The notes below the pieces were generated by a model that made no database searches, was not told where the DNA came from, and saw nothing but the letters and a program-made list of their open reading frames with translations. The position numbers and the translations under genes were made by a program. DNA of 64,000 nt. Source: Taeniopygia guttata. Lineage: Eukaryota. The stretch lies in the NCBI RefSeq assembly GCF_048771995.1, contig NC_133041.1, positions 4,727,324-4,791,323 on the forward strand, in the 5' to 3' direction. This document shows, one piece after another, positions 6,551-60,764 of this stretch (its first letter is position 1; each line of letters opens with the position of its first letter).

Positions 6551-6668
6551 TCACGTGGGGGCGGAGCTTGGGATGATGACATCATCAGGCTCCGCCCACT
6601 CCTCTTCAGGCTCCGCCTCTCCCAAGCAGCGACGAATCAGATCGCCCCAGAGGAGGTGGGTGTGGCAC
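6551..6668 (-). CDS. SLX1: SLX1 structure-specific endonuclease subunit, terminal coding exon; encodes (G)CHTHLLWGDLIRRCLGEAEPEEEWAEPDDVIIPSSAPT*
   Basis: Minus-strand acceptor ccccag (plus 6669-6671). The TGA stop is the reverse complement of tca at 6551-6553. Matches the human SLX1 C-terminus CCEKSLLWGDLIWLC. Minus-strand AATAAA signals sit at plus 6507-6512 and 6488-6493. Confidence 0.85.
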
Positions 6669-6744
6669 CTGGGGGCGGGGTCAGAGTCAGGACACACCAT
6701 CTTTGGACAAGCCCCGCCCCCTGGCAGCCATATTGAATATTTCC

Positions 6745-7260
6745 TTTATTAAATAAATGCAAATTAAAACAAGCCCTGCCCCCTGGCAGCCATATTGAAT
6801 ATTTTTTTATAAGGGGAATGCAAATTAAAACAAGCCCCGCCCCCTGGCAGCCATATTGAATATTTTTTTATAAGGGGAATGCAAATTAAAACAAGCCCCG
6901 CCCCCTGGCAGCCATATTGGAACATTTCCTTAGAAGGGAAATGCAAATTAAAATAAGTCCCACCCCCTGGCAGCCATCTTGAAATTTTTCCTGATAAAAC
7001 AAATAGGAATTAAAACAAGCCCTGCCCCCGGCAGCCATATTGAAATATTTCTTTATAAGAGAAATGCAAATTAAAACAAGCCCCACCCCCTGGCAGCCAT
7101 ATTGAAACCTTTCCTGATAAAACAAATAGGAATTAAAACAAGCCCCACCCCCTGGCAGCCATCTTGGAACGTTCCCTCATAAGGTAAAGCTCCTTAAAAA
7201 ACAAGCCCCGCCCCCTGGCAGCCATCTTGGATCCTTTCCTTAAAAGGAAAACCGCTCTAA
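6745..7260. repeat. 60-bp tandem repeat of about 8 copies carrying an octamer (ATGCAAAT), an Sp1 GC box (CCCCGCCCCC) and a YY1-like core (GGCAGCCATATTG/ATCTTGG), inside an SLX1 intron
   Basis: Unit aaacaagccccgccccctggcagccatattgaatatttctttataaggggaatgcaaattaaa. Confidence 0.9.
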
Positions 7261-7305
7261 ACAACAAGCTCCGCCCCCCAGCATTAAGCCCCGCCCCTTT
7301 TTTAC

Positions 7306-10789: not shown

Positions 10790-11230
10790 TTCCGCCCGCG
10801 CTCAACATGGCGGCGGTACGGCCTTGTTATCCCACAATCCATTGCGGGATTGTAGCTCCGCCTCTTTAAAATGGCGGCGGTACGGCCTAGCTATCCCACA
10901 ATCCATTGCGGGATTGTAGCTCCGCCTCTTTAAAATGGCGTCGGTTGTGTGCCTCCTTACCCACAATGCACCGCGGCACCACTTCCGCCCCCGCTCAAAA
11001 TGGCGGCGTTACGGCCTCGTTATCCCACAATCCATTGCGGAATTGTAGTTCCGCCTCTTCAAGATGGCGGCGGTTCAGTGTCTCGTTACCCACAATGCAC
11101 TGCGGCAGAATTGTAGTTTTATCTTTTAAAGATGGCGGCGGTTTGTGCCTCGTTACCCACAATGCACTGCGGCAGAATTGTAGTTTTATCTTTTAAAGAT
11201 GGCGGCGGTTTGTGCCTCGTTACCCACAAT
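10790..11230. promoter_or_regulatory. SLX1/BOLA2 bidirectional promoter core: about 7 tandem units of roughly 60 bp, each carrying a YY1 core (AAGATGGCGGCGG) and a ZNF143/SBS motif (for example AACTACAATTCTGCCGCAGTGCATTGTGGGTAA, read on the minus strand)
   Basis: The array lies between the SLX1 start (about 10758, minus) and the BOLA2 start (11571, plus). The ACTACAATTCCC...TGCATTG SBS consensus is recognisable in every unit, and AAGATGGCGGC is the YY1 consensus. Confidence 0.6.
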
Positions 11231-11540
11231 GCACTGCGGGAGGAAAAAAAAAATTATATTTAATGATAAGCATTATGTAGCATTAATTAGCTTGTACTTG
11301 CGGTGAGTGGTTAATAGGCGTTAATTAGTGATGAATTTATTTTAATTGGTGCTTAATAACCGCCTCGCTTACCCACAATGCCGCGTTTCACTTCCGCCTC
11401 TTTACCCACAAACCTTTGCGCCTTTTACTGTCTTCGCCTCGCTTACCCACAATTCCCTGCCTTACTTCCGCCTCATTACCCACAATGCATCGCTCTCCCC
11501 GCCCGTCCCGCCTCGCTTTCCCATCGAGCCCCGCGCAGCG

Positions 11541-11549: not shown

Positions 11550-11570
11550 ACGCAGGGCCCCTGACCGGAA

Positions 11571-11636
11571 ATGGAGCCGCCCACGGCGGAGGAGCTGCGG
11601 GAGCGGCTCCGGGAGCGGCTCCAGGCCGAGCACGTG
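11571..11636 (+). CDS. BOLA2: BOLA2 exon 1; encodes MEPPTAEELRERLRERLQAEHV
   Basis: ATG at 11571, donor gtgcgt. Matches human BOLA2 MELSAEYLREKLQRDLEAEHV. It is head-to-head with SLX1, as in human. Confidence 0.85.
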
Positions 11637-30297: not shown

Positions 30298-31243
30298 GTC
30301 AGACCCCTACTGGTTTATACTGGTTTATACTGGTTTATACTGGTTTAGAATGATTTATATTCGTTTAAGGCTCTTATTCAATATGGCGCCCAAAATGGCT
30401 GCCCAAAATGGCTGCCCAAAATGGCTGCCCAAAATGGCTGCCTCCATTGGTGTTTACAAGATGGCTGCCCAAAATGGCTGCCATAGACTGAATCTAAGAT
30501 GGCTGCCCAAGATGGCTCCCCATTGTGGCCACCCATTGGTGCATACTGGTTTTTACTGGTTTATACTGGTTTATACTGGTTTATTTTGAGTTTAAGACAC
30601 TTATTCAATATGGCGCTCAAAATGGCTGCCCAAAATGGCTGCCTCCACTGGTGTTTACAAGATGGCTGCCCAAAATGGCTCCCCACTGCGATCAGCCATT
30701 GGTGCATACTGGTTTTACTGGTTTATACTGGTTTATACTGGTTTATACTGGTTTATACTGGTTTATACTGGTTTATACTGGTTTATACTGGTTTTACTGG
30801 TCCATACTGGTCCATACTGGTTTGGACTGGTCTATACTGGTTTATACTGGTTTATACTGGTCCATACTGGTTTATACTGGTTTATGCTGGTCCGTACTGG
30901 TCCATACTGGTTTATACTAATTTTACTGGTCCATACTGGTTCATACTGGCCCATACTGGCCCATACTGGTCCATACTGGTTTATACTGGTTTATACTGGT
31001 TTTTCTCATCCATACTGGTCCATACTGGTCCATACTGGTCCATACTGGTCCATACTGGTTTATACTGGTTTATGCTGGTCCATACTGGTCCATACTGGTT
31101 TATACTGGTTTTTCTCATCCATACTGGTTTATACTGGTCCATACTGGTCCATACTGGTCCATACTGGTCCATACTGGTCCATACTGGTTTATACTGGTCC
31201 ATACCGGTTTATACTGGTTTATACTGGTTTTTACTGGTCCCAG

Positions 31244-37150: not shown

Positions 37151-37366
37151 GGCGCCTTCTGGGGGCTGCTGGGGGGTCTGGGGCTGGGCCTGGCCCGGCT
37201 GATCCCCGAATTCCTGCTGGGCTCCGGCTCCTGCGGCGCCCCCGGGCGCTGCCCGGCGCTGCTCTGCGGGATGCACTACCTGCACTTCGCCGCGCTGCTC
37301 TTCCTCCTCACCGCCGCCATCGTCATCGCCGTGTCCTGCTGCCACCCGCCCATCCCCGAGGTCCAC
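37151..37366 (+). CDS. SLC5A2: SLC5A2 exon 13; encodes [72 protein letters not shown]
   Basis: Acceptor tctccccgag, donor gtgagt. Matches SGLT2 [51 protein letters not shown]...PIPRKH. A partial 5' copy lies at 36517-36586, and three 3'-end-plus-donor copies lie downstream. Confidence 0.9.
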
Positions 37367-38110: not shown

Positions 38111-39308
38111 GCCGCGCTGCTCTTCCTCCTCACCGCCGCCATCGTCATCGCCGTGTCCTGCTGCCACCCGCCCATCCCCGAGGTCCACGTGAGTCTCGGG
38201 AAGTTTTTTGGGGAAAAAACGGTGAAAAAATGGTGAAAAACGGTGAAAAAATGGCCAAAAAATGGCCAAAAATGCGCTCGAAACGGGCTCAAAATGGGCA
38301 CAAAAGTGGGACAAAAAAAGCCCAAAATGGGACAAAATGGGCCCAAAAATGGCCCAAAAGGAGCCCAGAATGGGTCAAACTGAAATGTGAGAGCTTGGGA
38401 ATTTTTGGGAATTTTTGGGAATTTTTTTGGGAAAAACCAGAAAAAATGACAAAAAAAGGTGAAAAAATGACGAAAAAATGGCGAAAAATGAGCCCAAAAT
38501 GGCCCCAAAATCAGCCCAAAATGAGCCCAAAATGACCCAAAAATGGGACAAAATGGCCACAAAATCAGCCCAAAATCAGCCCAAAATGACCCCAAAATGA
38601 CCTAAAATGGCCCCAGATTGACTAAAAATGCCCCAAAATAACCAAAATGGCCCAAAATTGCCCCAAATGGTCGCAGCGGAGCCGCGCTGCTCTTCCTCCT
38701 CACCGCCGCCATCGTCATCGCCGTGTCCTGCTGCCACCCGCCCATCCCCGAGGTCCACGTGAGTCTCGGGAAGTTTTTTTGGGGAAAAACGGCGAAAAAA
38801 TGGTGAAAAACGGTGAAAAAACGGTGAAAAAAGGGCGAAAAAACGGCCAAAAATGCGCTCGAAATGAGCTCAAAATGGCCCCAAAATGGGACAAAATGGG
38901 CCCAAAAATGGCCCAAAAGGAGCCCAGAATGGGTCAAACTGAAATGAGAGATTTTGGGACTTTTTGGGAATTTTTGGGGGAAAAAACCAGAAAAAATGAC
39001 AAAAAAAGGTGAAAAAATGACGAAAAAATGGCAAAAAATGAGCCCAAAATGGCCCCAAAATCAGCCCAAAATGAGCCCCAAAATCAGCCCAAAATGAGCC
39101 AAAAATGGGACAAAATGGCCACAAATCAGCCCAAAATGACCCAAAAATGACCTAAAATGGCCCCAGAATGACTAAAAATGCCCCAAAATAACCAAAATGG
39201 CCCAAAATTGCCCCAAATGGTCGCAGCGGAGCCGCGCTGCTCTTCCTCCTCACCGCCGCCATCGTCATCGCCGTGTCCTGCTGCCACCCGCCCATCCCCG
39301 AGGTCCAC
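38111..39308 (+). other. Three copies of the SLC5A2 exon 13 3' end plus donor (GCCGCGCTGCTCTTCCTCCTCACCGCCGCCATCGTCATCGCCGTGTCCTGCTGCCACCCGCCCATCCCCGAGGTCCAC|gtgagtctcggg) at 38111-38188, 38681-38758 and 39231-39308
   Basis: Each copy terminates one tandem unit of about 560 bp. The real exon ends at 37366 with the identical sequence. Confidence 0.85.
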
Positions 39309-40695
39309 GTGAGTCTCGGGAAGTTTTTTTGGGGAAAAACGGCGAAAAAATGGTGAAAAACGGTGAAAAAACGGTGAAAAAAGGGCGAAAAAACGGCCAA
39401 AAATGCGCTCGAAATGAGCTCAAAATGGCCCCAAAATGGGACAAAATGACCCAAAAATGGGACAAAATGGCCCCAAAAATGGCACAAAAGGAGCCCAAAA
39501 TGGGTCAAACTTAAATGTGAGATTTTGGGACTTTTTGGGAATTTTTTTGGGATTTTTTTCCCAATTTTTGGGTGATTTTTGTGAATTTGAGGTGGATTTT
39601 GCCATTTTTGGGCAATTTTGGGTGGATTTTGATAAATTTTGGTTTAATTTTTGCCAAATTTTGGTTGGATTTCTGTTATTTTGGGGTGGATTTTTGACAT
39701 TTTTGGGGTGGATTTTGCCCAATTTTGGGTGGATTTGGCAGAATTTTGGGCAGATTTTGCCTTTTTTGGGTTGATATTTGTGGATTTTGGGTCAATTTTA
39801 GTGAATTTTGGGTGGATTTTGCCATTTTTGGGGTCAATTTTGCCATTTTTGGCTGGATTTTTGTGAATTTTGGATTTTGGCAAATTTTGGCTCAATTTTT
39901 CCAATTTTTGAGTGTTTTTTGTGAATTTTGGGTGTTTTTTTCTAAATTTTGAGTGTTTTTTGTTAATTTGGGGTCTATTTTTCCAACTTTTGAGTGATTT
40001 TTGTGAATTTTGGGTTGATTTTTCTGAATTTTGGGTGGATTTTGCAGAATTTCGGGTGGATTTTGCCAGTTTTGGGTCGATTTTTGTGAATTTTGGGTGG
40101 ATTTCGCCATTTTTTGGGTAATTTCGCCATTTTTGGGCTCGATTTTTGTGCATTTTGGGTCGATTTTGCCATTTTTGGTTGATTTTTGTGAATTTTGGGC
40201 GGATTTCCCCATTTTTGGGGTCGCTTTTGCCATTTTTGGGGTCGATTTTTGTGAATTTTGGTTGATTTTTGTGAATTTTGGGCGGATTTTGCCATTTTTG
40301 GGGTCGATTTTGCCATTTTTGGGGTCGATTTTGCCATTTCTGGGTCGATTTTTGTGCATTTTGGGTGGATTTTGCCATTTTTGGGGTCCATTTTGCCATT
40401 TTTTGGGTCGATTTTGCCATTTTTTGGTTGATTATTGTGAATTTTGGGTCGATTTTGCCGAATTTTGGGGTCGATATTGCCATTTTTGGGGTCAATTTTG
40501 TCATTTTTTGGTTGATTTTTGTGAATTTTGGGCGGATTTCGCCATTTTTGGGGTCGATTTTGCCATTTTTTGGTTGATTTTTGTGAATTTTGGGCGGATT
40601 TCGCCATTTTCGGGGTCGATTTTTCCATTTTCGGGGTCGATTTTGCCGAATTTTGGGTGGATTTTGGTGAATTTTGGGCGATTTCCCGATTCCAG

Positions 40696-42629: not shown

Positions 42630-43110
42630 CTGGTGACGTCATTGGCTCCGCCCACTTTGTGCTGATTCGCGTTAATTGCGGGGAATTAATTGGGGTTAAT
42701 TAATGGAAAAGGGGTCGGGGAGTCGTTAATTACCGCCGCCCTCATTAATTAAGCCGCTAATCATTAATAATTCGCCTCATTTCGCTTCAATTCCGCGTTG
42801 CCATGGCGACGGGGGCGTGGCTTAAGGCGGAAGCGTTGCTGGGGTGGGGGACGGCGCTGATTCGCTGCGGCGTTGCTAGGCGTGTTCTGATTGGCGGAAG
42901 CGTTGCTAGGCGTGCTCTCATTGGTCGCGCTGTCATATGCGCGCTCTGATTGGCTCCACCGCCTCTAGGCGTGCTCTGATTGGAGGAGGCGTGCCCAGGC
43001 GCGCTCTGATTGGCTGGAGGCGCCGCGTCGCTTCCGCTTCCGCCCCATGTGACCCGCGGCGCTCTTAAAGGGGCCGCGCCCGCCCGGGGCCTTTTTTGGG
43101 GCGATTTTGG
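42630..43110 (+). promoter_or_regulatory. CDIPT TATA-less promoter: a CRE TGACGTCA abutting an inverted CCAAT box and a GC box at about 42635-42660, followed by 5-6 tandem inverted CCAAT (NF-Y) boxes CTGATTGG/TCATTGG at about 42860-43015
   Basis: The motifs are visible directly, for example ggtgacgtcattggctccgcccac and the repeated gcgtgctctgattggc. They lie immediately upstream of the CDIPT ATG at 43177. Confidence 0.5.
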
Positions 43111-43176: not shown

Positions 43177-43219
43177 ATGGGGGAGGAGAACGTGTTCCTG
43201 TTCGTGCCCAACCTCATCG
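43177..43219 (+). CDS. CDIPT: CDIPT (phosphatidylinositol synthase) exon 1; encodes MGEENVFLFVPNLI(G)
   Basis: ATG at 43177, donor GTgagc at 43220. Matches human MPDENIFLFVPNLIG. Confidence 0.9.
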
Positions 43220-45414
43220 GTGAGCGCAAACTGGGAGCACTGGTTTATACTGGGAGGGACTGGGGGGCACTGGTTTATACTGGGAGGGACTGGGGGGCAC
43301 TGGTTTATACTGGGAGGGGTTTGGGGGGCACTGGTTTATACTGGTTTATACTGGGAGGGGTTTGGGGGGCACTGGTTTATACTGGGAGGGGATTGGGGGG
43401 CACTGGTTTATACTGGGAGGGACTGGGGGGGCACTGGTTTATACTGGGAGGGGTTTGGGGGGCACTGGTTTATACTGGGAGGGGTTTGGGGGGCACTGGT
43501 TTATACTGGGAGGGGTTTGGGGGGCACTGGTTTATACTGGGAGGGGATTGGGGGGCACTGGTTTATACTGGGAGGGGTTTGGGGGGCACTGGTTTATACT
43601 GGGAGGGGTTTGGGGGGCACTGGTTTATACTGGGAGGGGTTTGGGGGGCACTGGTTTATACTGGGAAGGGATTATGGGGCACTGGTTTATACTGGGAGCA
43701 GTTTGGGGGGGCACTGGTTTATACTGGGAGGGCATTGGGGGGGCACTGGTTTATACTGGGAGGGGATTGGGGGGCACTGGTTTATACTGGGAAGGGTTTG
43801 AGGGGCACTGGTTTATACTGGGATGAACTGGGATGAACTGGGAGGGGTTTGGGGGCGCTCCAGATAGGGCTGGACTGGGATTGCTACTGGTTTGTACTGG
43901 TTTATACTGGTTTTACTGGTTTATACTGTTTTTTACTGGTTTGTACTGGTCTATACTGGTTTATACTGGTTTATACTGGTTTATACTGGTTTATACTGGT
44001 TTATACTGGTCCAAACTGGTCTTCCATCAATCTACATCACCCGGGGACCCATTTTAGGGCAGTTTTGGTGGCCAAAACTGGACTTTTACTGGTCCATACT
44101 GGTTTTTACTGGTATTACTGGTTTTTACTGGTTTATACTGGTTCATACTGGTTTATACTGGTTTATACTGGTCCAAACTGGTCGTCCCTCACTCTGCTTC
44201 ACTTGGGGACCCATTTCAGGGAGGTTTTGGTGGCCAAAACTGGACTTTTACTGGTCCATACTGGTTTATACTGGTTTGTACTGGTTTATACTGGTTTTTA
44301 CTGGTTTATACTGGTTTTTACTGGTCCATACTGGTTTATACTGGTTTATACTGGTCCAAACTGGTTGTCCATCACTCTGCATCACCTGGGGACCCATTTT
44401 AGGGACGTTTTGATGGTCAAAATTGTACTTTTACTGGTCCATACTGGTTTATACTGGTTTTACTGTTTTTTACTGGTTTATACTGGTTTATACTGGTCCA
44501 AACTGGTCCAAACTGGTCCAAACTGGTGCAAACTGGTCCAAACTGGTCGTCCCTCAATCTACATCACCCGGGGACCCATTTTAGGGAGGTTTTGATGGTC
44601 AAAATTGGACTTTTACTGGTCCATACTGGTTTGTACTGGTTTTACTGGTTTTTACTGGTTTATACTGGTCCATACTGGTTTATACTGGTTTATACTGGTT
44701 TATACTGGTCCAAACTGGTCGTCCATCAATCTGCATTACCTGGGGACCCATTTTACGGAGGTTTTGGGGATCAAAACTGGACTTTTATTGGTCCATATTG
44801 CATTATACTGGTTTATACTGGTTTATACTGGTCTATACTGGTTTATACTGGTTTGTACTGGTTTGTACTGGTTTATACTGGTCCAAACTGGTTTATACTG
44901 GTCCAAACTGGTCGTCCCTCACTCTGCATCACCCGGGGACCCATTTTAGGGAGATTTTGATGGCCAAAACTGGACTTTTACTGGTCCATACTGGTTTTAC
45001 CGGTCCATACTAATTTATACTGGTTCATACTGGTCTATACTGGTTTATACTGGTTCTTACTGGTTTATACTGGTCCAAACTGGTTGTCCATCACTCTACA
45101 TCACCCGTGGACCCATTTTAGGGCGGTTTTTGGTGGCCAAATTGGACTTTTACTGGTCCATACTGGTTTATACTGGTTTTACTGGTTTTTACTGGTTTGT
45201 ACTGGTTTATACTGGTCCAAACTGGTCCAAACTGGTCCAAACTGGTCCAAACTGGTCGTCCATCAATCTGCATCACCCGGGGACCCATTTCAGGGAGTTT
45301 TTGGTGGCCAAAATTGGACTTTTACTGGTCTATATTGCATTATACTTGTTTATACTGGTTTATACTGGTTTATACTGGTCCATACTGGTTTATACTGGTT
45401 TATACTGGTGCCAG

Positions 45415-45549
45415 GCTACGCCCGGATCCTGCTGGCCGCCGTCTCCTTCGGGCTGATGCCGACGCGGCCGTGGCCGGCGGCCGTTTGCTACGGGACGGCC
45501 GCGCTGCTGGACGCCGTCGACGGGCACGCGGCGCGGGCGCTGGGCCAGG
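45415..45549 (+). CDS. CDIPT: CDIPT exon 2; encodes (G)YARILLAAVSFGLMPTRPWPAAVCYGTAALLDAVDGHAARALGQ(G)
   Basis: Acceptor ggtgccag, donor GTactg at 45550. The CDP-alcohol phosphatidyltransferase motif D-G-x2-AR is present (LLDAVDGHAARAL). Confidence 0.9.
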
Positions 45550-48312
45550 GTACTGGTTATACTGGTTTATACTGGTTTGTACTGGGAGGGACTGGGAGGG
45601 ACTGGGTTTTAGTCATTTTACCTTTTTTTTGCATTTTTTACTGGTTTTGACTGGTTTTAACTGGTTTAAAACTAGTTTATAACTGGTTTTATACTGGTTT
45701 ATACTGGTTTTATACTGGTTTATACTGGTTTATACTGGTTTATACTGGTTTATACCAGTTAGGACTGGTTAGGATTGGTTTATAGTGGTTTTATTGGTTT
45801 TTAATATTTTTTACCTTTTTTTGTGGTTTTTACTGGTTTTGACTGGTTTAAAACTGGTTTATAACTGGGTTTATACTGGTTTTATACTGGTTTATACTGG
45901 TTTGTACTGGTTTATAGTGGTTTATACTGGTTAGGACTGGTTAGGACCAGTTAGGATTGGTTTTTACTGGTTTTACTGGTTTATAATATTTTTTACCATT
46001 TTTTGTGGTTTTTACTGGTTTTTATTGGTTTTGACTGGTTTAAAACTGGTTTATACCTGGTTTTATACTGGTTTATACTGGTTTATACTGGTTTATACTG
46101 GGAGGGACTGGGTTGTACCGGTTTTACTGGGTTTTAGTCATTCTTACCTTTTTTTTTGCATTTTTTACTGTTTTTTACTGGTTTTTATTGGTTTTGACTG
46201 GTTTAAAACTGGTTTAAAACTGGTTTTATACTGGTTTATACTGGTTTGTACTGGTTTATACTGGTTTATACCGGTTAGGACCGGTTACGATTGGTTTATA
46301 CCGGTTTTACTGGGTTTTAGTAATTTTTTTTGCATTTTTTACTGGTTTTTACGGTTTTGACTGGTTTTAACTGGTTTAAAACTGGTTTATACTGGGTTTA
46401 TACTGGTCTGTACTGGTTTATACCAGTTAGGACTGGTTAGGATTGGTTTATACTGGTTTTACTGGTTTTTAATATTTTTTATCTTTTTTTTTGTGGTTTT
46501 TACTGGTTTTGACTGGTTTAAAACTGGTTTATAACTGGGTTTATACTGGTTTATACTGGTTTGTAGTGGTTTTACTGGGTTTTAGTAATCTTTACTTTTT
46601 TTTTCATTTTTTACTGGTTTTTACTGGTTTTGACTGGTTTAAAACTGCTTTATAACTGGTTTTATACTGGTTTTTACTGGTTTATACTGGTTTATACTGG
46701 TTTATACTGGTTAGGACTGGGAGGGACTGGTTTGTACTGGTTTTACTGGTTTTTAGTCATTTTTGCCTTTTTTTTTTCATTTTTTACTAGTTTTTACTGG
46801 TTTTTACTGGTTTTGACTGGTTTAAAACTGGTTTATAACTGGGTTTATACTGGTTTGTACTGGTTTATACTGGTTTATACTGGGAAGGAGCCCCGCCCCC
46901 GCCGCCATCTTGGATTGACCTTTTTGAAACTTTTCCCTCCAAATTTTGGCCTTTTTTCCCCAAAATTTCGGGATTTTCCCCCAAATTTGGAGCTCCCAGT
47001 CCCAAACTGGGAATTTCCTAATTCCAAACTGGGAATGTCCCAGTTCCAAACTGGGAATGTCCCAATTCCAAACTGGGAAGATCCCAATTAGCCTCAGTCC
47101 TTTGCCGCCATCTTGGATTGACCTTTTTGATCTTTTCCTCCAAATTTTGACTTTTTTTTCCCCCAAATTTTGGTTTTTTGTCCCAAATTTTGAGGTTCCA
47201 GTTCCAAACCGGGAATTTCCCAATTCCAAACTGGGAATGTCCCAATTCCGAACTGGGAAGGTCCCAATTAGCACCAGTCCTCTGCCGCCATCTTGGATTG
47301 ACCTTTTTGACCTCTTTTCCCTCCAAATTTTGACCTTTTTTCCCCAAAATTTTGGTTTTTCGTCCCAAATTTTGAGGTTCCGGTTCCAAACTGGGAATGC
47401 CCCAGTCCCAAACTGGGAATTTCCCAGTTCCTAACTGGGAAGGTCCCAATTAGCCTCAGTCCTCCGCCGCCATCTTGGATTGACCTTTTTGACCTCTTCC
47501 CTCCAAATTTTGACCTTTTTTTTCCCAAAATTTGGGGTTTTTTCCCCAAAATTTTACCCCCACGCCCCACCCCAGTCCCTCCCAGTTTGGAACCGGTCTG
47601 ATCCCAGTCTGGAACTGGGAATGTTCCAGTTGGGCCCACCCTTCCACCATCTTGGATTGACCTTTTCGAGCTCTTCCCTCCAAATTTCAACATTTTTCCT
47701 CCGTAATTTCCCATTTTTTCACCAAAATTTTGACTTTTTGCCCCCAAATTTTTCCCCCACGCCCCACCCCAGTCCCTCCCAGTTTGAACCGGTCTGATCC
47801 CAGTTTGGAACTGGGAATGTTCCATTTGGCCCCGCCCCTTCCGCCATCTTGGATTGACCTTTTCGAGCTTTTCCCTCCAAATTTCGACTTTTTTTTCCCC
47901 AAAATTTCAGGATTTTCCCCCAAATTCAGAGCTCCCAGTCCCAAACTGGGAATTACCCAGTCCCAAACTGGGAATTTCCCAGTTCCAAACTGGGAAGGTC
48001 CCAGTTAGCCCCAGTCCTCCGCCGCCATCTTGGATTGACATTTTTGAGCTCGTCCCTCCAAATTTCAACCTTTTTTTCCCAAAATTTGGGGCTTTTCCCC
48101 CAAAATTTTTCCCCCACGCCCCACCCCAGTCCCTCCCACTTTGGAACCAGTCTGATCCCAGTTTGGAACTGGGAATGTCCCAGTTGACCCCACCCCTGCC
48201 GCCATCTTGGATTGACCTTTTCGAGTTTTCCCTCCAAACTTCAACATTTTTCCTCCGTAATTTCCCATTTTTTTACCAAAATTTCGCCTTTTTCCCCCAA
48301 ATTCTTCCCCAG

Positions 48313-48466
48313 GCTCGCGGCTGGGCGCCATGCTGGACATGCTGACGGACCGGCTGAGCTCCATGTGCCTCCTGCTGAACCTGGCGCTGCTCTACCCGCG
48401 TTGGGCGCCGCTCTTCCAGCTCAGCTCCGCCCTGGACCTGGCCAGCCATTGGCTGCACACGCACTG
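48313..48466 (+). CDS. CDIPT: CDIPT exon 3; encodes (G)SRLGAMLDMLTDRLSSMCLLLNLALLYPRWAPLFQLSSALDLASHWLHTH(C)
   Basis: Acceptor cttccccag, donor GTgggc at 48467. Matches human TRFGAMLDMLTDRCSTMCLLVNLALLYPGATLFFQISMSLDVASHWLHLHS. Confidence 0.88.
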
Positions 48467-50456
48467 GTGGGCGGGGCTTGGCGGGGCGGGGCCGGGGCAT
48501 GGTCGCCTGGGGGAGAAATGGGGAAAAAAACGGGAAAAAACGGGAAAATTAGGCAAAAAATGGGGGAAATATGGGGGGAAATGGGTGTTTGGGGGCGTGG
48601 TTTGAGTGGGAGGGGGCGTGGCTTATGTGGGTGGGGCTGGGCGTGGTCACCGGGGGGAGAAATGGGGAAAAAATGGGAAAAAACGGGAAAATTGGGGCAA
48701 AAAATGGGGGAAATATGGGAAAAAATGGGACTTTGGGGGCGTGGTTTGAGTGGGAGGGGGCGTGGCTTAGGTGGGTGGGGCTGGGCGTGGTCGCCGGGGG
48801 GAGAAATGGGGAAAAAACGGGAAAATTGAGGCCAAAAATTGAGGAAATATGAGGGGAAATGAAGTTTTGGGGGCGTGGTTAGAGTGGGAGGGGGCGGGGC
48901 TTGGCGGGGCGGGGCCGGGGCGTGGTCACCGGGGGGAGAAATGGGGAAAAAACGGGAAAAAAAGGGAAAAAAATGGGAAAATTGGGGCAAAAAATGGGGG
49001 AAATATGGAGGGAAATGAGGGTTTGGGGGCGTGGTTTGAGTGGGAGGGGGCGTGGCTTAGGTGGGTGGGGCTGGGCGTGGTCGCCGGGGGGAGAAATGGG
49101 GAAAAAACGGGAAAAAACGGGAAAATTGAGGCCAAAAATTGAGGAAATATGAGGGGAAATGGAGTTTTGGGGGCGTGGTTAGAGTGGGAGGGGGCGGGGC
49201 TTGGCGGGGCGGGGCCGGGGCGTGGTCACCGGGGGGAGAAATGGGGAAAAAACGGGAAAATTGGGGCAAAAATGGAGGAAATATGGGGGGAAATTGCGGT
49301 TTGGGGGCGTGGTTTGACTGTGGCAATGTGGGCGTGGCCACTGTGATATATATGCTAATGAGGGGCCTCACTCCATATATGATGATGTGGGCGTGGTCTT
49401 TGATCCATATATGCTAATTAGGGGTCCTCACTCCAAATATGGCTATGTGGGCGTGCCCTCTGATGAATATATGCTAATGAGGGTTACTCATTGCATATAT
49501 GGCAATGTGGGCGTGGTCTTTGTGCCATATATGCTAATGAGGGTCACTCTACATATGGCAATGTGGGCGTGGCCCTTGCGCTATATATGCTAATTAGATG
49601 TATGCCATATAGGGTGATGTGGGCGTGGTCTTTGTACCATATATGCTAATGAGGGGTCGTTACTCTATATATGGTGATGTGGGTGTGGTCACTGATCAAT
49701 ATATGCTAATGAGGGGTCCTCACTGCATATATGGCCATGTGGGCGTGGCCTTTGGTCTATATATGCTAATGAGGTTTACTCACTGCATATATGGCAATGT
49801 GGGCGTGGTCTTTGCCCCAAACATGCTAATGAGGGTTACTCACTGCATATATGGTGACGTGGGCGTGGTCTTTGTGCCATATATGCTAATGAGGGTCACT
49901 CAGTGCATATATGTTGATGTGGGCGTGGTCTTTGCACCATATATGCTAATGAGGGCTCCTCATTCCATATATGGCAATGTGGGCGTGGTCTTTGCACCAT
50001 ATATGCTAATGAGCATATATTTAGGCATGGCCACTGATCAATATATGCTAATGAGGGTTACTCCATATATGGCGATGTGGGTGTGGTCTTTGCTCCATAT
50101 ATGCTAATTAGGGGCCCTCACGCTATATATGGTGATGTGGGCGTGGTCTTTGCACCATATATGCTAATGAGGGACCCTCACTCCATATATGGCAATGTGG
50201 GCGTGGTCTTTGTCCCAAATATGCTAATGAGGGTCACTGCATGTATGGAAATGTGGGCGTGGTCTTTGCTTTATATATGCTAATGAGGGCTCCTCACTCC
50301 ATTTATGATGATAATATATGCTAATGAGGGCTCCTCACTCCATATATGGTGATGTGGGCGTAGTCTTTGCGCCATATATGCAAATGAGGGTTTCTATATA
50401 TGTCGATGTGGGCGTGTCCCGCCTGACCACGCCCCCTCTGGCCCCTCCCCCTTTAG

Positions 50457-50538
50457 CTCCGCCCTCCAGGGGGCGGCGTCGCACAAGGCCGTGGGGGGGG
50501 AGGGGCACCCCCTGCTGAGGCGCTACTACCAGTGCCGG
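50457..50538 (+). CDS. CDIPT: CDIPT exon 4; encodes (C)SALQGAASHKAVGGEGHPLLRRYYQCR
   Basis: Acceptor cccctttag, donor gtgaga at 50539. The length and the SHK...P-LR-YY-SR pattern match human SVVRGSESHKMIDLSGNPVLRIYYTSR. The alternative acceptor at 50469 breaks the reading frame. Confidence 0.75.
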
Positions 50539-51450: not shown

Positions 51451-51532
51451 CCCCTCCTCTTCGCGCTCTGCGCAGCCAATGAGGGATTCCACTGCTGCCT
51501 CTACCTGCTGCACTGGGGGGAGGGGCCCGCAG
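51451..51532 (+). CDS. CDIPT: CDIPT exon 5; encodes PLLFALCAANEGFHCCLYLLHWGEGPA(V)
   Basis: Acceptor ccgcccccag, donor gtgagt. Matches human PALFTLCAGNELFYCLLYLFHFSEGPL. Confidence 0.88.
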
Positions 51533-54330
51533 GTGAGTCCCACTGGTTTGGACTGGTTTATACTGGTTTGTACTGGTTTGTACTGGTTTGTACTGGTTTG
51601 TACCCGTTTTACTGGGTTTTACTGGTTTTCGGTCATTTTTACCATTTTTTTGCATTTTTTACTGGTTTTGACTGGTTTTGACTGGTTTTAACTGGTTTAA
51701 AACTGGTTTAAAACCTGTTTATTACTGGTTTGTACTGGTTTGTACTGGTTTATACTGGTCTGTACTGGTCTGTACTGGTTTGTACCCGTTTTACTGGGTT
51801 TTACTGGTTTTCGGTCATTTTTACTGTTTTTTTCCATTTTTTTACTGGTTTTGACTGGTTTTGACTGGTTTTAACTGGTTTAAGACTGCTTTATAACTCA
51901 TTTTATACTGGTTTATACTGGTTTGTACTGGTTTGTACTGGTTTGGACCCGTTTTATTGGGTTTTACTGGTTTTCGGTCATTTTTACCCTTTTTTTCCAT
52001 TTTTTACTGGTTTTTACTGGTTTTGACTGGTTTAAACTGCTTTATAACTCATTTTATACTGGTTTATACTGGTTTTTACTGGCCCGGACTGGTTTGTACC
52101 CGTTTTACTGGGTTTTACTGGGTTTTAGTAATTTTTATGGGTTTTTTTGCATTTTTACTGGTTTTTAGTTGTTTTTACTGGTTTTAACTGGTTTAGAACT
52201 GCTTTATAACTGGTTTTATACTGGTTTATACTGGTTTGTACTGGTTTGTACTGGTTTGTACCCGTTTCACTGGGTTTTACTGGTTTTACGTCATTTTTAT
52301 GTGTTTTTTTGCATTTTTATTGGTTTTTACTGGTTTTGACTGGTTTTAACTGGTTTAAAACTGGTTTTATAACTGTTTTATACTGGTTTATACTGGTCCA
52401 TACTGGTTTGTACTGGTTTGTACCCGTTTTATTGGGTTTTACTGGGTTTTAGTAATTTTTATGGGGTTTTTTGCATTTTTACTGGTTTTTACTGATTTTT
52501 AGTGGTTTTTACTGGTTTTGACTGGCTTTAACTGGTTTAAAACTGGTTTATAACTGGTTTATAGTGGTTTATACTGGTTTGTACTGGTTTGTACCCGTTT
52601 TATTGGGTTTTACTGGTTTTTAGTCATTTTTATGGGTTTTTTTGCATTTTTACTGTTTTTTACTGATTTTTAGTTGTTTTTACTGGTTTTAACTGGTTTA
52701 AAACTGGTTTATAACTGGTTTATAACTGGTTTATAACTGGTCTGTACTGGTTTGTACTGGTTTGTACCCGTTTTACTGGGTTTTACTGGTTTTCAGTCAT
52801 TTTTATGTTTTTTTTTTGCATTTTTACTGGTTTTAAACTGGTTTTATCTGTATTTTTTACTGGTTTAAACCATTTTTTCCTGTTTTTTTCTGGATTTTTT
52901 TGTCCATACTGGTCCGTACTGGTCCATACTGGTCTGAACCGGTTCTAACCAGTTTGCACTGCTTCTATCTAGACTTTATTGTGGTTTTAACCATTTCAAA
53001 CTGGTTTTTATCCGGTTTTTAACGGGATTTTTGCTGGTTTAAACCATTTTTTCCTATTTTTTTCCGGATTGTTTTGGTTCATACTGGTCTGTACTGGTCC
53101 GTACTGGTCCGTACTGGTCTGAACCGGTTCTAACCAGTTTGTACTGCTTCTGACTGGTTTTTATTCTGGTTTTAACCGGTTTCAAACTGGTTTTTATCCG
53201 TTTTTTAACCGGATTTTTGCTGGTTTAAGCCGTTTTTTTCCGGATTTTTTGGTTCATACTGGTCCGTACTGGTCTGTACTGGTCCGAACCGGTTCTAACC
53301 AGTTTGTACTACTTCTGACTGGCTTTTAGTGTGGTTATAACCAGTTTCAAACTGGTTTTTAACCGGATTTTTGCTGGTTTAAGCCATTTTTTCTCTGTTT
53401 TTTTCCGTATTTTTTGGTTCATACTGGTTCATACTGGTCCGTACTGGTCTGTACTGGTCCGTACTGGTTCTAACTGGTTTGTACTGGTTCTATCTAGACT
53501 TTATTGTGGTTTTCACCCGTTTCAAACTGGTTTTTAACCGGATTTTTGCTGGTTTAAGCCGTTTTTTTCTCGTTTTTTCCTGGATTTTTTGGTCCGTACT
53601 GGTCCGTACTGGTCCGTACTGGTCCGAACCGTTTCTAACCAGTTTGTACTACTTCTGACTGGCTTTTAGTGTGGTTTAAACCAGTTTCAAACCGGTTCCA
53701 ACTGGTTTTAAACTGGTTTTATCTGGATTTTTTCTGGTTTAAGCTGTTTTTTTCTGGATTTTTATGTTCGTACTGGTCCGTACTGGTCCATACTGGTCTG
53801 AACCAGTTCTAACCAGTTTGTACTACTTCTGACTGGCTTTTAGTGTGGTTTTAGCCGGTTTCAAACTGGTTTTTAACCGGATTTTTGCTGGTTTAAGTCG
53901 TTTTTTTCTGGTTTTTTCCGGATTTTTTGGTTCATACTGGTCTGTACTGGTCCGTACTGGTCCGAACCAGTTTGTACTGCTTCTGACTGGTTTTTATTCT
54001 GGTTTTAACTGGTTTCAAACTGATTTTTATCCGGTTTTTAACCGGATTTTTGCTGGTTTAAGCCATTTTTTTCCGGATTTTTTGGTTCATACTGGTCCGT
54101 ACTGGTCCGTACTGGTCGGAACCGGTTCTCACCAGTTTGTACTGATTCTATCTAGACTTTATTGTGGTTTTAACCCGTTTCAAACTGGTTTTTAACCGGA
54201 TTTTTGCTGGTTTAAGCCGTTTTTTTCTCGTTTTTTCCCGGATTTTTTGGTCCGTACTGGTCCGTACTGGTCCGTACTGGTCCGTACTGGTCGGAACCGG
54301 TTCTGACCGGTTTCTCCTCTCCCCCCGCAG

Positions 54331-54485
54331 TGTTCCCGGGGGGTCCGGGGCTGTTCCGGTTGGTTCTGTGGCTCTCGGCCCCCCTGGCCGCCCTCAAATC
54401 CTTCCTGAACCTTCTGCAGCTGGGCGGGGCCCTGAGGGGCGTGGCCGCCCTGGACGCGGCCGAAAGGGCCCAAAAATCCTCCTGA
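54331..54485 (+). CDS. CDIPT: CDIPT terminal coding exon; encodes (V)FPGGPGLFRLVLWLSAPLAALKSFLNLLQLGGALRGVAALDAAERAQKSS*
   Basis: Acceptor ccccccgcag. TGA stop at 54483-54485. An AATAAA lies at 54658-54663. Matches human VGSVGLFRMGLWVTAPIALLKSLISVIHLITAARNMAALDAADRAKKK. Confidence 0.88.
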
Positions 54486-59651: not shown

Positions 59652-60764
59652 CTGGGGGGGTGGGGGAGGGGCGGGGGGCGTGGCCAAAGGGGGAGGGGCG
59701 TCAAGGCCACGCCCACCGCGAAATTTCGGTGAAAATTCCCAAAAAAACCCGGGAAAAATCGACGGAATTTTGGGGGTTTTGGGGGGTAAAATGCGCGAGG
59801 GAAGCTCCGCCCACTCCGCGCAAAGCTCCGCCCACTGAGTGCAAAGCTCCGCCCACTGAGCCCAAAGCTCCGCCCCCACCTCATTAAGCCCCTCCCCCAC
59901 CCATTTTTTCCCATTTTTCCGCCATTTTGGGGTCCGCGACCTTCGCCAATTTTGCCCCTCCCCCATTTTAAGCCCCTCCCCCACCTTTAGCCCCTCCCCT
60001 ACCTTTAGCCCATCCCCTTTTAGCCCCTCCCCCACCTCATTAAGCCCCTCCCCCACCTTTTATTTTCCCCATTTTTTCGCCATTTTGGGGTCCTCGACCT
60101 CCGCGATTTTTGCCCCTCCCCCATTTTAAGCCCCTCCCCCCTTTTAAGCCCCTCCCCCACATTAAGCCCCTCCCCTTTAAGCCCCTCCCCCACCTCATTA
60201 AGCCCCTCCCCCACCTTTTATTTTTCCCATTTTTTCGCCATTTTGGGGTCAGTGACCTCCACCATTTTTGCCCCTCCCCCATTTTAAGCCCCTCCCCCAT
60301 TTTAAGCCCCTCCCCCATTTTAAGCCCCTCCCCCACCTTCAGCCCCTCCCCCATTTTAGCCCCTCCCCCACCTTTTATTTTTCCCATTTTTCCGCCATTT
60401 TTGGGTCCTCGACCTTCGCCATTTTTGCCCCTCCCCCATTTTAAGCCCCTCCCCCATTTTAAGCCCCTCCCCCACCTTTAGCCCCTCCCCCATTTTAGCC
60501 CCTCCCCCACCTTTAATTTTTCCCATTTCTCCGCCATTTTGGGGTCCTCGACCTTCGCCATTTTTGCCCCTCCCCCCTTTTAGCCCCTCCCCCACCTCAT
60601 TAAGCCCCTCCCCCTCCCATTTTTTCCCATTTTTTTGCCATTTTGGGGTCCTCAACCGCCGCGTTTTTTGCCCCTCCCCCATTTTCAGCCCCTCCCCCAC
60701 CTCTGGCCCCTCCCCCCGCCCCTCCCCCACCCCCGCCCCTCCCCCACCCCCGCCCCTCCCCCAC

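What the first reader, a model, noticed from the sequence alone, without database searches (positions are those of the whole stretch)
46890..48300. Satellite carrying a perfect YY1 consensus (GCCGCCATCTTGGATTGACC) in CDIPT intron 2; YY1-like cores recur in four independent repeat families
Eight units of about 180 bp each start with CCGCCATCTTGG, the reverse complement of AAGATGGCGG. Similar cores appear at 6745-7260 (GGCAGCCATATTG/ATCTTGG), 10790-11230 (AAGATGGCGGCGG) and 30350-30700 (CAAGATGGCTGCC, AAAATGGCTGCC). This may mean that these satellites seed or derive from promoter-like sequence, or act as intronic YY1 binding platforms.
Basis: partly seen in the sequence, partly recalled or inferred. 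Interest (0 to 1): 0.55.

Follow-up and report, generated by a model that had tools for sequence, protein, structure and literature searches.

The report
Conserved YY1-site minisatellite in songbird CDIPT intron
A 1.4-kb tandem repeat in intron 2 of the zebra finch CDIPT gene carries a textbook YY1 binding site next to a GC box in every unit; the same array sits in the same intron in two other songbird families, and the YY1 site is its best-conserved part, so it is probably a real but untested cluster of transcription-factor sites, not chance.

Summary
Window 46890-48303 holds 7 full units plus 1 truncated unit (177-203 bp). Each unit carries CCGCCATCTTGG; one has CCACC. The array lies in CDIPT intron 2 (45550-48312) and ends 9 bp before exon 3. 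The window is zebra finch.

YY1-like cores are enriched even when each array counts once: 9 separate loci, against a maximum of 5 among 2000 column-permuted decoy motifs. The "four independent families" are not all independent. The SLX1 last-intron array (6707) and the CDIPT array share a GC-box-N5-GCCATCTTGGAT module. The 30350 element is a dispersed repeat. The 10807 array is the SLX1/BOLA2 CpG-island promoter.

The new result is cross-species. The CDIPT array is also present in intron 2 of Zonotrichia (15 units) and Camarhynchus (4 modules), and absent in parrot, crane and chicken. Units are 64-72% identical between species, yet CGCCATCTTGGAT is invariant in 26 of 27 units.

Best reading: a concertedly evolving intronic minisatellite whose constrained core is a composite GC-box/YY1 site. 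It resembles the clustered YY1 sites of Peg3 and the mouse L1 Tf monomers. Binding and function are untested, and the finch array is CpG-poor. It is a new member of a known kind, of moderate interest.

The parts
46890..48303 (+). Minisatellite in CDIPT intron 2. It has 7 full units plus 1 truncated unit of 177-203 bp. Subtype A units start at 46902, 47105, 47285 and 47841. Subtype B units start at 47467, 47644, 48022 and 48199 (partial).
46901..46912 (-). YY1 consensus CAAGATGGCGGC, read on the minus strand (antisense to CDIPT), unit 1. It abuts GC box GCCCCGCCCCC at 46890-46900.
47104..47115 (-). YY1 consensus CAAGATGGCGGC, unit 2 (subtype A; GC box decayed to AGCCTCAGTCC)
47284..47295 (-). 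YY1 consensus CAAGATGGCGGC, unit 3
47466..47477 (-). YY1 consensus CAAGATGGCGGC, unit 4
47643..47654 (-). Weakened core CAAGATGGTGGA (the motif CpG is mutated), unit 5
47840..47851 (-). CAAGATGGCGGA, unit 6. GC box CCCCGCCCC lies at 47830-47838.
48021..48032 (-). YY1 consensus CAAGATGGCGGC, unit 7
48198..48209 (-). YY1 consensus CAAGATGGCGGC, unit 8 (truncated unit that runs into the exon-3 polypyrimidine tract and acceptor)
45415..45549 (+). CDIPT exon 2 (upstream border of intron 2)
48313..48466 (+). CDIPT exon 3 (the array ends 9 bp upstream)
6668..7302 (-). Last intron of SLX1, almost entirely filled by a related 62-bp array. Each unit has CCAAGATGGCTGCC or CAATATGGCTGCC, then GGGGGCGGGGCTTG. 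The core is in sense orientation to SLX1. The array shares the GC-box/GCCATCTTGGAT module with the CDIPT array.
10790..11241 (+). Tandem 64-67-bp units in the SLX1/BOLA2 bidirectional CpG-island promoter, each with (C/A/T)AA(N)ATGGCGGCGG. This family is separate from the CDIPT array.
30345..30700 (+). Two copies of a dispersed element rich in CAA(A/G)ATGGCTGCC 13-mers. It is embedded in (ACTGGTTTAT)n in an SLC5A2-like intron and is homologous to a sequence in sparrow CDIPT intron 2.
59866..60716 (-). A fifth family with YY1-like cores (CAAAATGGCGGA or CAAAATGGCGAA), in a MYLPF intron, with units of about 158 bp. It is unrelated to the other families beyond the core.

Best explanation
The feature is an inherited, concertedly evolving intronic minisatellite in a zebra finch region where 81% of the sequence is tandem repeat. 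This is the type described for avian dot chromosomes.

Each unit has two parts. One is a pyrimidine-rich spacer with A/T tracts phased at about 21 bp, which expands and contracts freely. The other is a complex module of about 35 bp: CCCAGTTTGGCCCCGCCCCC-GCCGCCATCTTGGATT. In it a GC box (Sp1/KLF type) directly abuts a consensus YY1 site, and the sparrow also has a CCAAT box 8 bp away.

Shown: the module sits in the orthologous intron of three passeroid families, copy number and spacing differ between them, and the YY1 core is the least variable part of the unit.

Inferred: the core is kept because it is used. The array is most likely a cluster of YY1 (plus Sp1) docking sites that are occupied when the motif CpG is unmethylated. 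It would then act at the DNA level as a methylation-sensitive intragenic regulatory element: an antisense-oriented promoter-like or enhancer module, or a YY1 multimerisation or looping anchor. The mammalian analogues are the clustered YY1 sites of Peg3 intron 1 and Xist, and the YY1-bearing monomers of the mouse L1 Tf promoter. Slippage and unequal exchange generate and homogenise the units.
For: 1. Motif quality. The 12-mer is the YY1 consensus in 6 of 8 units (score 19.3 of a maximum 19.3). CGCCATCTT matches the literature pattern cgCCATntt. GCCGCCATCTTG closely resembles the proven sites GTCGCCATCTTG (L1 Tf) and GCCGCCATTTTG (Peg3/Xist) (PMC2665242, PMC11602158).

2. Orthology. Zonotrichia CDIPT intron 2 has 15 units and Camarhynchus has 4 modules, in the same orientation and also reaching the exon-3 acceptor. 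No hit at or above 14.3 occurs anywhere in the CDIPT loci of budgerigar, crane or chicken.

3. Constraint. Internal units are 83-85% identical within a species but only 64-72% identical between species. Even so, CGCCATCTTGGAT is 99.7% conserved over 27 units, against 77.6% for all columns. It is the top 13-mer window, and no column permutation reached it (0/20000), either over the whole unit or within the complex block.

4. CpG retention. The motif CpG is kept in 26/27 units. The two GC-box CpGs are kept in 19/27 each, and the other CpGs in 10-11/27.

5. DNA-level feature. The same module is antisense to CDIPT but sense to SLX1. This argues for a DNA-level feature and against an RNA-level one.

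6. Second example. The SLX1 intron array is also conserved in Agelaius and Anomalospiza.

7. Position of variation. In the three arrays where every periodic unit has a hit, variation falls at matrix positions 1, 4, 11 and 12, with one exception at position 9. These are mostly the low-information YY1 positions.
Against: - There are no binding, methylation or transcription data.
- The finch array is not CpG-island-like (GC 0.47, CpG o/e 0.44, the same as the window average).
- Zebra finch dot chromosomes are reported to be heavily methylated (bioRxiv 10.1101/2025.10.14.682431), and CpG methylation lowers YY1 binding at least 8-fold (PMC11602158).
- Units are related by descent and homogenised, so permutation p-values overstate independence.
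- The spacer is low-complexity and mutates faster by slippage, which inflates the contrast with the core.
- The YY1 matrix was recalled from memory.
- The SLX1 array has the CpG-less variant GGCTGC, and some of its units in other species have lost the core while keeping the GC box.
- Only three passeroid families were sampled for CDIPT.
Confidence: 0.5

Rival explanations
1. Neutral by-product. The array is an ordinary 'stuttering' minisatellite. Its founder unit happened to contain a GC box and a YY1-like word, which are common in this gene-dense, promoter-rich region. The word persists only through recent amplification and homogenisation. Nothing binds it, and it has no effect on the host.
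For: 81% of the window is tandem arrays, 170 in all. Dot-chromosome introns are known to be filled with such repeats (PMC12954441; bioRxiv 10.1101/2025.10.17.683159). Copy number and spacing differ freely between species (8, 15 and 4 units, and tree-finch spacers of 150-780 bp). The finch array is CpG-poor. One unit has already lost the motif CpG, and subtype A units have lost the GC box.
Against: The core is invariant in 26/27 units even though units are only about 65-70% identical between species and the adjacent complex flank varies. The AT-rich half of the conserved block (ATCTTGGATT) cannot be preserved by GC-biased conversion. YY1-like cores occur at 9 loci, against no more than 5 for any of 2000 column-permuted decoys.
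Confidence: 0.3
2. Selfish or structural maintenance. The GC-rich module is the place where breaks, fork stalling or conversion tracts start. Birds place recombination hotspots at CpG-island-like sequence. Units carrying the module would then be preferentially copied and homogenised. Conservation would reflect repeat dynamics (possibly via G4 or hairpin structure, or via YY1/Sp1-dependent open chromatin) and not a host function.
For: There is strong concerted evolution: 83-85% identity within species against 64-72% between species, and the edge units of sparrow and tree finch stay orthologous to each other at 78%. The minus strand of subtype B units is G-run rich. Intronic minisatellites of dot chromosomes have been proposed as recombination hotspots. 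Inverted repeats such as CCCAGTT..AACTGGG flank the module.
Against: A break-initiating allele is expected to be converted away, not preserved. The most invariant bases are the YY1 core itself and not the G-runs, which vary. No recombination data were available.
Confidence: 0.12
3. Exon-derived stutter or RNA-level element. The core would be a decayed copy of neighbouring coding sequence (ATG-GCN Met-Ala codons, such as GGCGCCATGCTGGAC at the start of exon 3), or it would act in the pre-mRNA as a splicing element.
For: Exon stuttering does occur in this window (SLC5A2 exon copies at 38100-39329) and in tree-finch CDIPT intron 2. The SLX1 exon begins with CAAGATGGCCGCC, against CAAGATGGCTGCC in the array unit (24/1000 shuffles reach the score). 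The array supplies the exon-3 polypyrimidine tract.
Against: Alignment of the unit to CDIPT exon 3 does not clearly exceed dinucleotide shuffles (13-75 of 300 reach the score, and other CDIPT exons used as controls score as well or better). The other exon comparisons give p of 0.02-0.05 uncorrected. The module has opposite orientations relative to transcription in CDIPT and SLX1. There are no Rfam or tRNA hits.
Confidence: 0.05

Closest known systems
Clustered YY1-binding sites conserved at homologous positions in mammals (Peg3 intron 1 / Peg3-DMR, Xist, and other 'ECM' loci; Kang, Chung & Kim 2009, PMC2665242)
   Same: Multiple CGCCATnTT sites lie in tandem inside an intron within a few kb of the gene start. 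The clusters are kept in the homologous intron of several species. The number and spacing of sites differ, and the surrounding sequence is poorly conserved. The motif contains a CpG, so binding is expected to be methylation-sensitive.
   Different: This is a bird lineage, and birds have no known imprinting (from memory). The host is the housekeeping gene CDIPT. The sites are part of a regular minisatellite of about 180 bp, each fused to a GC box. No ChIP or methylation evidence exists here, whereas most of the mammalian loci were confirmed by ChIP.
Mouse LINE-1 Tf 5'UTR monomer arrays (PMC11602158)
   Same: Both are head-to-tail units of about 200 bp, each with one YY1 site of nearly the same sequence (GTCGCCATCTTG against GCCGCCATCTTG). 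In L1 each monomer is a promoter unit, and YY1 is proposed to bridge monomers.
   Different: The finch array is not part of a retrotransposon. It lies 9 bp upstream of CDIPT exon 3 and is orthologous across species. No promoter activity has been shown, and the motif points antisense to the host gene.
'Sequence stuttering' minisatellites in introns of avian dot-chromosome genes (PMC12954441; zebra finch T2T and non-B DNA preprints 10.1101/2025.10.14.682431 and 10.1101/2025.10.17.683159)
   Same: The genomic context and anatomy match: imperfect tandem units of tens to hundreds of bp fill the introns, sub-periods are multiples of 10-11 bp, A-tracts are phased, and length differs between species.
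   Different: [quoted passage not shown] Here the same unit family is shared by three passeroid families, a specific 13-mer is invariant, and no exon origin was detectable. Those papers do not mention transcription-factor motifs.
YY1 motif as a downstream core-promoter element of vertebrate CpG-island promoters, often paired with Sp1 (from memory: Xie et al. 2005; Xi et al. 2007; Seto et al. 1993)
   Same: The sequence AAGATGGCGGC next to a GC box (and a CCAAT box in the sparrow) is the composition of a TATA-less housekeeping promoter. The 10790-11241 array is such a promoter.
   Different: The CDIPT array is intronic and CpG-poor in the finch, and no transcription start site has been mapped to it.

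Membership tests
Clustered YY1-binding sites of the ECM / Peg3-intron type (PMC2665242) | At least three cgCCATntt motifs within 500 bp | tested here: met
   Seven perfect CGCCATCTT sites lie between 46903 and 48200 at 177-203-bp spacing (one 374-bp gap spans the mutated unit at 47644), so three fall within 500 bp. The script's gap-chained version of the criterion (successive gaps of 250 bp or less) calls one cluster of 12 relaxed hits at 46903-48701.
Clustered YY1-binding sites of the ECM / Peg3-intron type (PMC2665242) | The cluster is present in the homologous region of three species, while number, spacing and flanks are not conserved | tested here: met
   Finch has 8 units, Zonotrichia 15 and Camarhynchus 4 modules, all in CDIPT intron 2. 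Between-species unit identity is 64-72%.
Clustered YY1-binding sites of the ECM / Peg3-intron type (PMC2665242) | Located within 5 kb of the gene's transcription start | tested here: inconclusive
   The array lies 3.7-5.1 kb downstream of the CDIPT ATG at 43177. The TSS itself is not mapped.
Clustered YY1-binding sites of the ECM / Peg3-intron type (PMC2665242) | In vivo occupancy by YY1 (ChIP) and methylation-dependent binding | not testable with these tools
Avian dot-chromosome 'stuttering' intronic minisatellite (PMC12954441) | The intron is largely covered by imperfect tandem repeats with units of tens to hundreds of bp | tested here: met
   81% of the window is in TRF arrays. Intron 2 consists of (ACTGGTTTAT)n-type arrays plus this array of about 180-bp units.
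Avian dot-chromosome 'stuttering' intronic minisatellite (PMC12954441) | Located on a dot microchromosome | not testable with these tools
   The chromosome of the window is not given. The gene content (SLX1, BOLA2, SLC5A2, CDIPT, MYLPF) and the repeat load fit, but they do not prove it.
Avian dot-chromosome 'stuttering' intronic minisatellite (PMC12954441) | Local origin: the unit is derived from the adjacent exon-intron border | tested here: not met
   The score of the unit against the exon-3 junction is reached by 13-75 of 300 shuffles, and other CDIPT exons used as controls score as well or better. A purely intronic local origin cannot be excluded.
Avian dot-chromosome 'stuttering' intronic minisatellite (PMC12954441) | Independent, species-specific expansion | tested here: inconclusive
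   Copy number, spacing and fixed variants are species-specific (GGATTGACC in finch, GGATTCATCCAATGG in sparrow). However, the unit family and its position are shared.
L1 Tf-type monomeric promoter (PMC11602158) | Tandem monomers of about 200 bp, each with one YY1 site | tested here: met
L1 Tf-type monomeric promoter (PMC11602158) | The monomers form the 5' end of a LINE-1 upstream of ORF1 | tested here: not met
   The array is bounded by (ACTGGTTTAT)n on one side and by CDIPT exon 3, 9 bp away, on the other. It is orthologous in three species.
CpG-island promoter | GC of about 0.5-0.55 or more and CpG o/e of 0.6 or more | tested here: not met
   The finch CDIPT array has GC 0.47 and CpG o/e 0.44. 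By contrast, the 10807 promoter array has 0.53 and 1.10, and the CDIPT promoter has 0.63 and 0.96.
YY1 binding site (sequence level) | Match to the consensus CAAGATGGCGGC with core GCCAT | tested here: met
   The match is 12/12 in 6 of 8 units, and the core GCCAT is present in 7 of 8 (the unit at 47644 reads ACCAT). The matrix used was recalled from memory, but the consensus agrees with the motifs quoted in PMC2665242 and PMC11602158.

The most novel reading that the evidence does not exclude
Songbirds may have evolved, and kept for tens of millions of years, concertedly evolving arrays of a composite GC-box/YY1 module inside genes of their minisatellite-filled dot chromosomes (CDIPT intron 2, the SLX1 last intron, and possibly many more). 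These arrays would work as methylation-sensitive YY1 docking platforms, a non-mammalian and non-imprinted counterpart of the Peg3-DMR and Xist YY1 clusters. They could anchor loops or keep host genes open amid repeat-induced silencing. The motif CpG would be protected from decay by occupancy in the germline.
Probability: 0.18. Interest if true: 0.7.

Novelty: new member of a known kind. Interest (0 to 1): 0.45.

Why it matters
The introns of avian dot-chromosome genes have only just been assembled. They are currently described as fast-turnover 'stuttered' minisatellites rich in non-B DNA, and the four avian genome papers read here make no link between YY1 and these repeats.

This case shows that at least some of the arrays are not random. 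A specific 13-mer, the YY1 core, stays invariant across three songbird families while the rest of the unit drifts to about 65-70% identity.

If the sites are occupied, these arrays would be the first bird examples of the clustered YY1-site elements known from mammalian imprinting centres, Xist and L1 promoters. They would also give a concrete handle on how genes stay regulated inside highly methylated, repeat-filled chromosomes.

The question can be tested directly with the methylation calls of the published zebra finch T2T assembly. If the sites are not occupied, the case still documents concerted evolution with an unusually sharp conservation footprint.

Tried and rejected
1. Exon-stutter origin of the core from CDIPT exon 3 (GGCGCCATGCTGGAC). 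Smith-Waterman scores of the unit against the exon-3 junction are reached by 13-75 of 300 dinucleotide shuffles, and other CDIPT exons used as controls score as well or better. Rejected.

2. Exon origin for the other families. The SLX1 exon start CAAGATGGCCGCC against the array unit is reached by 24/1000 shuffles. The SLC5A2 exon end against the 13-mer array is reached by 46/1000. The MYLPF exon gives only GC-box-like similarity. These are suggestive at best and do not survive multiple testing.

3. Known RNA genes. There are no Rfam families at gathering score and no tRNAs in the window.

4. Copies elsewhere. A metagenome scan for the 20-mer gave 7 single-copy hits in unrelated contigs and no bird satellite. 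The other public collections available hold no bird genomes, so a genome-wide census of the repeat was impossible.

5. Minus-strand host gene. The sparrow annotation shows a syntaxin model running over the whole locus. A tblastn with a syntaxin-1 sequence recalled from memory found no exon in the window or in L008. Unresolved.

6. CpG-island classification of the CDIPT array: not met in the finch.

7. Look-ups for CDIPT loci of Pseudopodoces, Aphelocoma and Chamaea returned nothing. The age of the CDIPT array beyond Passeroidea is therefore unknown.

8. Age of the SLX1 array. The ground tit has a 98-bp single-unit intron without the core, and a suboscine has no array. The tit genome is an old short-read assembly and the array may be collapsed.
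Full report
**What is there.**

Window 46890-48303 is a tandem array. CCGCCATCTTGG starts each unit at 46902, 47105, 47285, 47467, 47841, 48022 and 48199, and CCACCATCTTGG starts the unit at 47644. Spacings are 177-203 bp. TRF reports periods of 182 and 197 at 89-90% match.

Aligning the units shows two subtypes. Subtype A carries 22-bp TCCCAATTCCAAACTGGGAATG sub-repeats. Subtype B carries CCCCCACGCCCCACCCCAGTCCC. The last unit is cut to 105 bp. The first 45 bp or so of each unit (CCGCCATCTTGGATTGACCTTTT.GA..TCCCTCCAAA) is the best-kept block.

The rest of each unit is a pyrimidine-rich spacer with A- and T-tracts phased at 21-22 bp.

**Where it lies.**

A tblastn with human CDIPT recalled from memory located six exons. 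With AG/GT borders (43177-43219, 45415-45549, 48313-48466, 50457-50538, 51451-51532, 54331-54485) they translate to 216 residues that are 100% identical over 100% of their length to Taeniopygia guttata CDIPT. The window is therefore zebra finch. The array occupies the 3' half of intron 2 (45550-48312) and ends 9 bp before exon 3.

Other genes in the window were identified from exon translations, by my own recognition of the proteins; only SLX1 was also confirmed by a database search:
- SLX1 on the minus strand (exons near 10583-10760, 8423-8705, 7303-7397 and 6560-6667)
- BOLA2 on the plus strand (ATG at 11572)
- an SLC5A2-like gene on the plus strand (about 20.6-37.4 kb)
- MYLPF on the minus strand (about 56.9-60.9 kb)

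TRF arrays cover 81% of the window. This matches published descriptions of avian dot-chromosome introns (PMC12954441; bioRxiv 10.1101/2025.10.14.682431; 10.1101/2025.10.17.683159).

**Is the motif more than chance?**

I used a YY1 matrix recalled from memory (JASPAR MA0095.2-like, consensus CAAGATGGCGGC). The window has 131 hits at p<1e-4 against 12.8 expected. Six of the eight array cores score the matrix maximum.

Copies inside an array are not independent, so I collapsed hits into loci more than 1 kb apart:
- YY1 gives 9 loci at p<1e-5.
- 2000 column-permuted decoy matrices give a mean of 0.29 loci and a maximum of 5.
- Decoys that were also complemented reach 8 or more loci in 4 of 2000.
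- At stricter cut-offs, YY1 keeps 6 loci and then 4 loci, against decoy maxima of 2 and 1.

Perfect CGCCATNTT occurs 36 times, where I estimate about 2 expected. GC content is 48%, so it does not explain this. Many of the weaker hits are CAAAATGGC variants of the window's C-run/A-run/T-run theme.

**Are the families independent?**

Not all of them. Pairwise local alignments were compared with 500 dinucleotide shuffles each.
- The SLX1 array (6707-7229) and the CDIPT array are related on the same strand (z=8-11, 0/500). They share AGCCCCGCCCCC, then about 5 nt, then GCCATCTTGGAT.
- The 30345-30545 element is homologous to a sequence in sparrow CDIPT intron 2 (z=18), so it is a dispersed element riding in (ACTGGTTTAT)n.
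- The 10807 array matches the CDIPT unit only through the 14-mer CAAGATGGCGGCGG.
- The 59866 family, in a MYLPF intron, is unrelated beyond the core.

The 6707 array fills the last intron of SLX1. The single hit at 7384 is the first codons of an SLX1 coding exon and not a promoter. The 10790-11241 array lies between the SLX1 and BOLA2 start codons in a true CpG island with o/e 1.1-1.17. That family is therefore real promoter sequence that has been tandemly duplicated.

**Related sequences from other species.**

Protein hits gave access to annotated loci.
- Zonotrichia albicollis (Passerellidae). CDIPT intron 2 holds 15 units (L008 5226-7477, 126-187 bp) reading GGCCCCGCCCCCGCCGCCATCTTGGATTCATCCAATGG....
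- Camarhynchus parvulus. The intron holds four modules (L009 3118, 3267, 3907, 4690). They are separated by greatly expanded 21-bp sub-repeats and by a stuttered partial copy of exon 3.
- Budgerigar, crane and chicken. Their CDIPT loci have no hit at or above 14.3 anywhere.

Units within a species are 83-85% identical, while units from different species are 64-72% identical. The edge units of sparrow and tree finch are orthologous to each other (78%) and differ from the internal units. This is classic concerted evolution. Species-specific variants are fixed in nearly every unit: GGATTGACC in all finch units, and GGATTCATCCAATGG or close variants, which add a CCAAT box in most units, in all but the edge unit of the sparrow.

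**Conservation footprint.**

Across all 27 units, the most conserved 13-column window is exactly CGCCATCTTGGAT. It is 99.7% conserved against 77.6% for all consensus columns. No column permutation reached it (0/20000), whether over the whole unit or within the 51-column complex block.

Every periodic unit in finch and sparrow contains the anchor word I used to extract units, so ascertainment bias is small.

The CpG inside the motif is retained in 26/27 units. The two GC-box CpGs are retained in 19/27 each, and two spacer CpGs in 10-11/27. Finch subtype A units have lost the GC box (AGCCTCAGTCC) but kept the YY1 core.

The AT-rich half of the invariant block cannot be explained by GC-biased gene conversion (inference).

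**A second conserved example.**

The SLX1 last-intron array has a 62-63-bp unit: CCAAGATGGCTGCC, then AGGGGGCGGGGCTTG, then TTCCTTATAAGGAA.
- It is present in Agelaius phoeniceus (at least 10 units) and in Anomalospiza imberbis (Viduidae), with 3-4 units.
- It is absent in the suboscine Myiozetetes.
- In the ground tit (Paridae) the intron is 98 bp. It is a single GC-box plus CCTTATAAGG unit with no YY1-like core, although this is a short-read assembly.

YY1 arrays also sit in the SLX1/BOLA2 intergenic region of Agelaius and Anomalospiza.

**How it most likely works.**

Shown: each unit carries a perfect YY1 consensus fused to a GC box. The array is orthologous in three passeroid families. The core is the least variable part of the unit. 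The same module is antisense to CDIPT and sense to SLX1, which favours a DNA-level role.

From the literature:
- Clustered YY1 sites that persist in homologous introns despite changes in number and spacing were mostly confirmed as bound in mammals (PMC2665242).
- Mouse L1 Tf monomers of about 200 bp each need their YY1 site (GTCGCCATCTTG) for promoter activity.
- Methylation of the motif CpG lowers binding at least 8-fold (PMC11602158).

Inferred: the array is a cluster of YY1 (plus Sp1) docking sites that are used when unmethylated. It would act as an intragenic regulatory element or anchor, and slippage and unequal exchange would remodel the spacers.

Against this: the finch array is CpG-poor (o/e 0.44), dot chromosomes are heavily methylated, and no occupancy data exist. 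I put about 0.5 on the constrained binding-site reading, 0.3 on a purely neutral minisatellite, 0.12 on maintenance through repeat or recombination dynamics, and 0.05 on an exon-derived or RNA-level origin.

**What led nowhere.**

- An exon-3 origin of the core was not supported.
- Exon origins for the other families reached only p of 0.02-0.05 uncorrected.
- There are no Rfam or tRNA hits.
- The metagenome scan for the 20-mer returned seven unrelated single-copy hits.
- Three CDIPT look-ups found nothing.
- The search for a minus-strand syntaxin exon was negative.

**Comparison and verdict.**

The array meets the sequence-level criteria of the clustered YY1-site class: motif, density, and conservation in three species. 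Occupancy is untested. It has the anatomy of a dot-chromosome stuttering minisatellite but differs in being shared across families. It resembles L1 Tf monomers in layout but is not part of a retrotransposon. It is not a CpG island in the finch.

No paper in the searchable library links YY1 to zebra finch or microchromosome minisatellites. I rate it a new member of a known kind, with interest 0.45.

Noticed in passing
window 37250-39330: A coding exon of the SLC5A2-like gene (about 37250-37340, + strand) has three further partial copies at 38100-38212, 38670-38779 and 39221-39329, with a period of about 550-570 bp. Each copy carries the weak hit GACGATGGCGGC. This is a clear case of 'exon stuttering'.
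   Followed up: partly
window 10759-11571: The SLX1/BOLA2 bidirectional promoter is a CpG island (o/e 1.17) made of 6.7 tandem 64-67-bp units. Each unit has a YY1 consensus, CCCACAATGCACTGCG (ZNF143/SBS-like, from memory) and GGGATTGTAG. ETS-like CACTTCCGCC words lie in two variant units and in the adjacent 11360-11523 array. YY1 arrays also occur in the same intergenic region of Agelaius (L013 9419-9858) and Anomalospiza (L014 9135-9854).
   Followed up: partly
window 30345-30545 and 30570-30700; L008 4400-4500 and 4720-4830: An element of about 100-190 bp (TTATTCAATATGGCGCC, then CAAAATGGCTGCC repeats, then CCATTGGTGCATACTGG) is embedded in (ACTGGTTTAT)n. It lies in a finch SLC5A2 intron and, at z=18, in sparrow CDIPT intron 2. 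It is a dispersed repeat of unknown nature.
   Followed up: partly
window 4895-5541, 6707-7229, 24786-24974, 42876-42983, 49321-50307: Other arrays carry other transcription-factor-like words. The octamer ATGCAAAT/ATTTGCAT occurs in 6707-7229 and 24786-24974. CArG boxes occur as CCATATAAGG (4895-5541) and CCATATATGG (49321-50307). The CCAAT word GATTGGCT is tandemly repeated just upstream of CDIPT exon 1 (42876-42983). GGGGCGGGGCTT and GTGGGCGTGG occur in many arrays. Enrichment was not tested.
   Followed up: no
L009 4085-4204: Camarhynchus CDIPT intron 2 contains a partial duplicate of exon 3 (residues 60-94, 52% identity), flanked by the same minisatellite.
   Followed up: partly
window 18609-19007, 25104-26065, 30706-31238, 43934-45399, 45625-46883, 51542-52869, 62949-63997: The 10-mer ACTGGTTTAT and its relative ACTGGGAGGG form long arrays in the introns of several different genes and on both strands. 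They appear to be the commonest repeat theme of the region. They also occur in sparrow and tree-finch CDIPT introns.
   Followed up: no
window 46890-48303: A- and T-tracts in the spacer of the CDIPT array are phased at 21-22 bp (two helical turns), and the unit length of about 180 bp is close to a nucleosome repeat. The + strand is 65% pyrimidine.
   Followed up: partly
L008 1-16742: The sparrow annotation has a minus-strand syntaxin/SNARE gene model running over the whole CDIPT locus. No syntaxin exon was found in L008 or in the window. This is either a nested arrangement or an annotation artefact.
   Followed up: partly
L003 4078-4097, L007 1299-1318: Two metagenome contigs of unknown organisms contain the identical 20-mer GCCGCCATCTTGGATTGACC next to further YY1-like words (CCAAAATGGCGGCC, CCCAAGATGGCGCC).
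   Followed up: no
L016 5548-5645 versus window 6668-7302: In the ground tit the last SLX1 intron is a single 98-bp unit (GC box plus CCTTATAAGG) with no YY1-like core. The preceding exon starts TGCTCCATGGCC there, against TGCAAGATGGCC in the finch, with CAAGATGGCCGC also at the same exon start in Agelaius and Anomalospiza. This hints at sequence exchange between the exon start and the array.
   Followed up: partly
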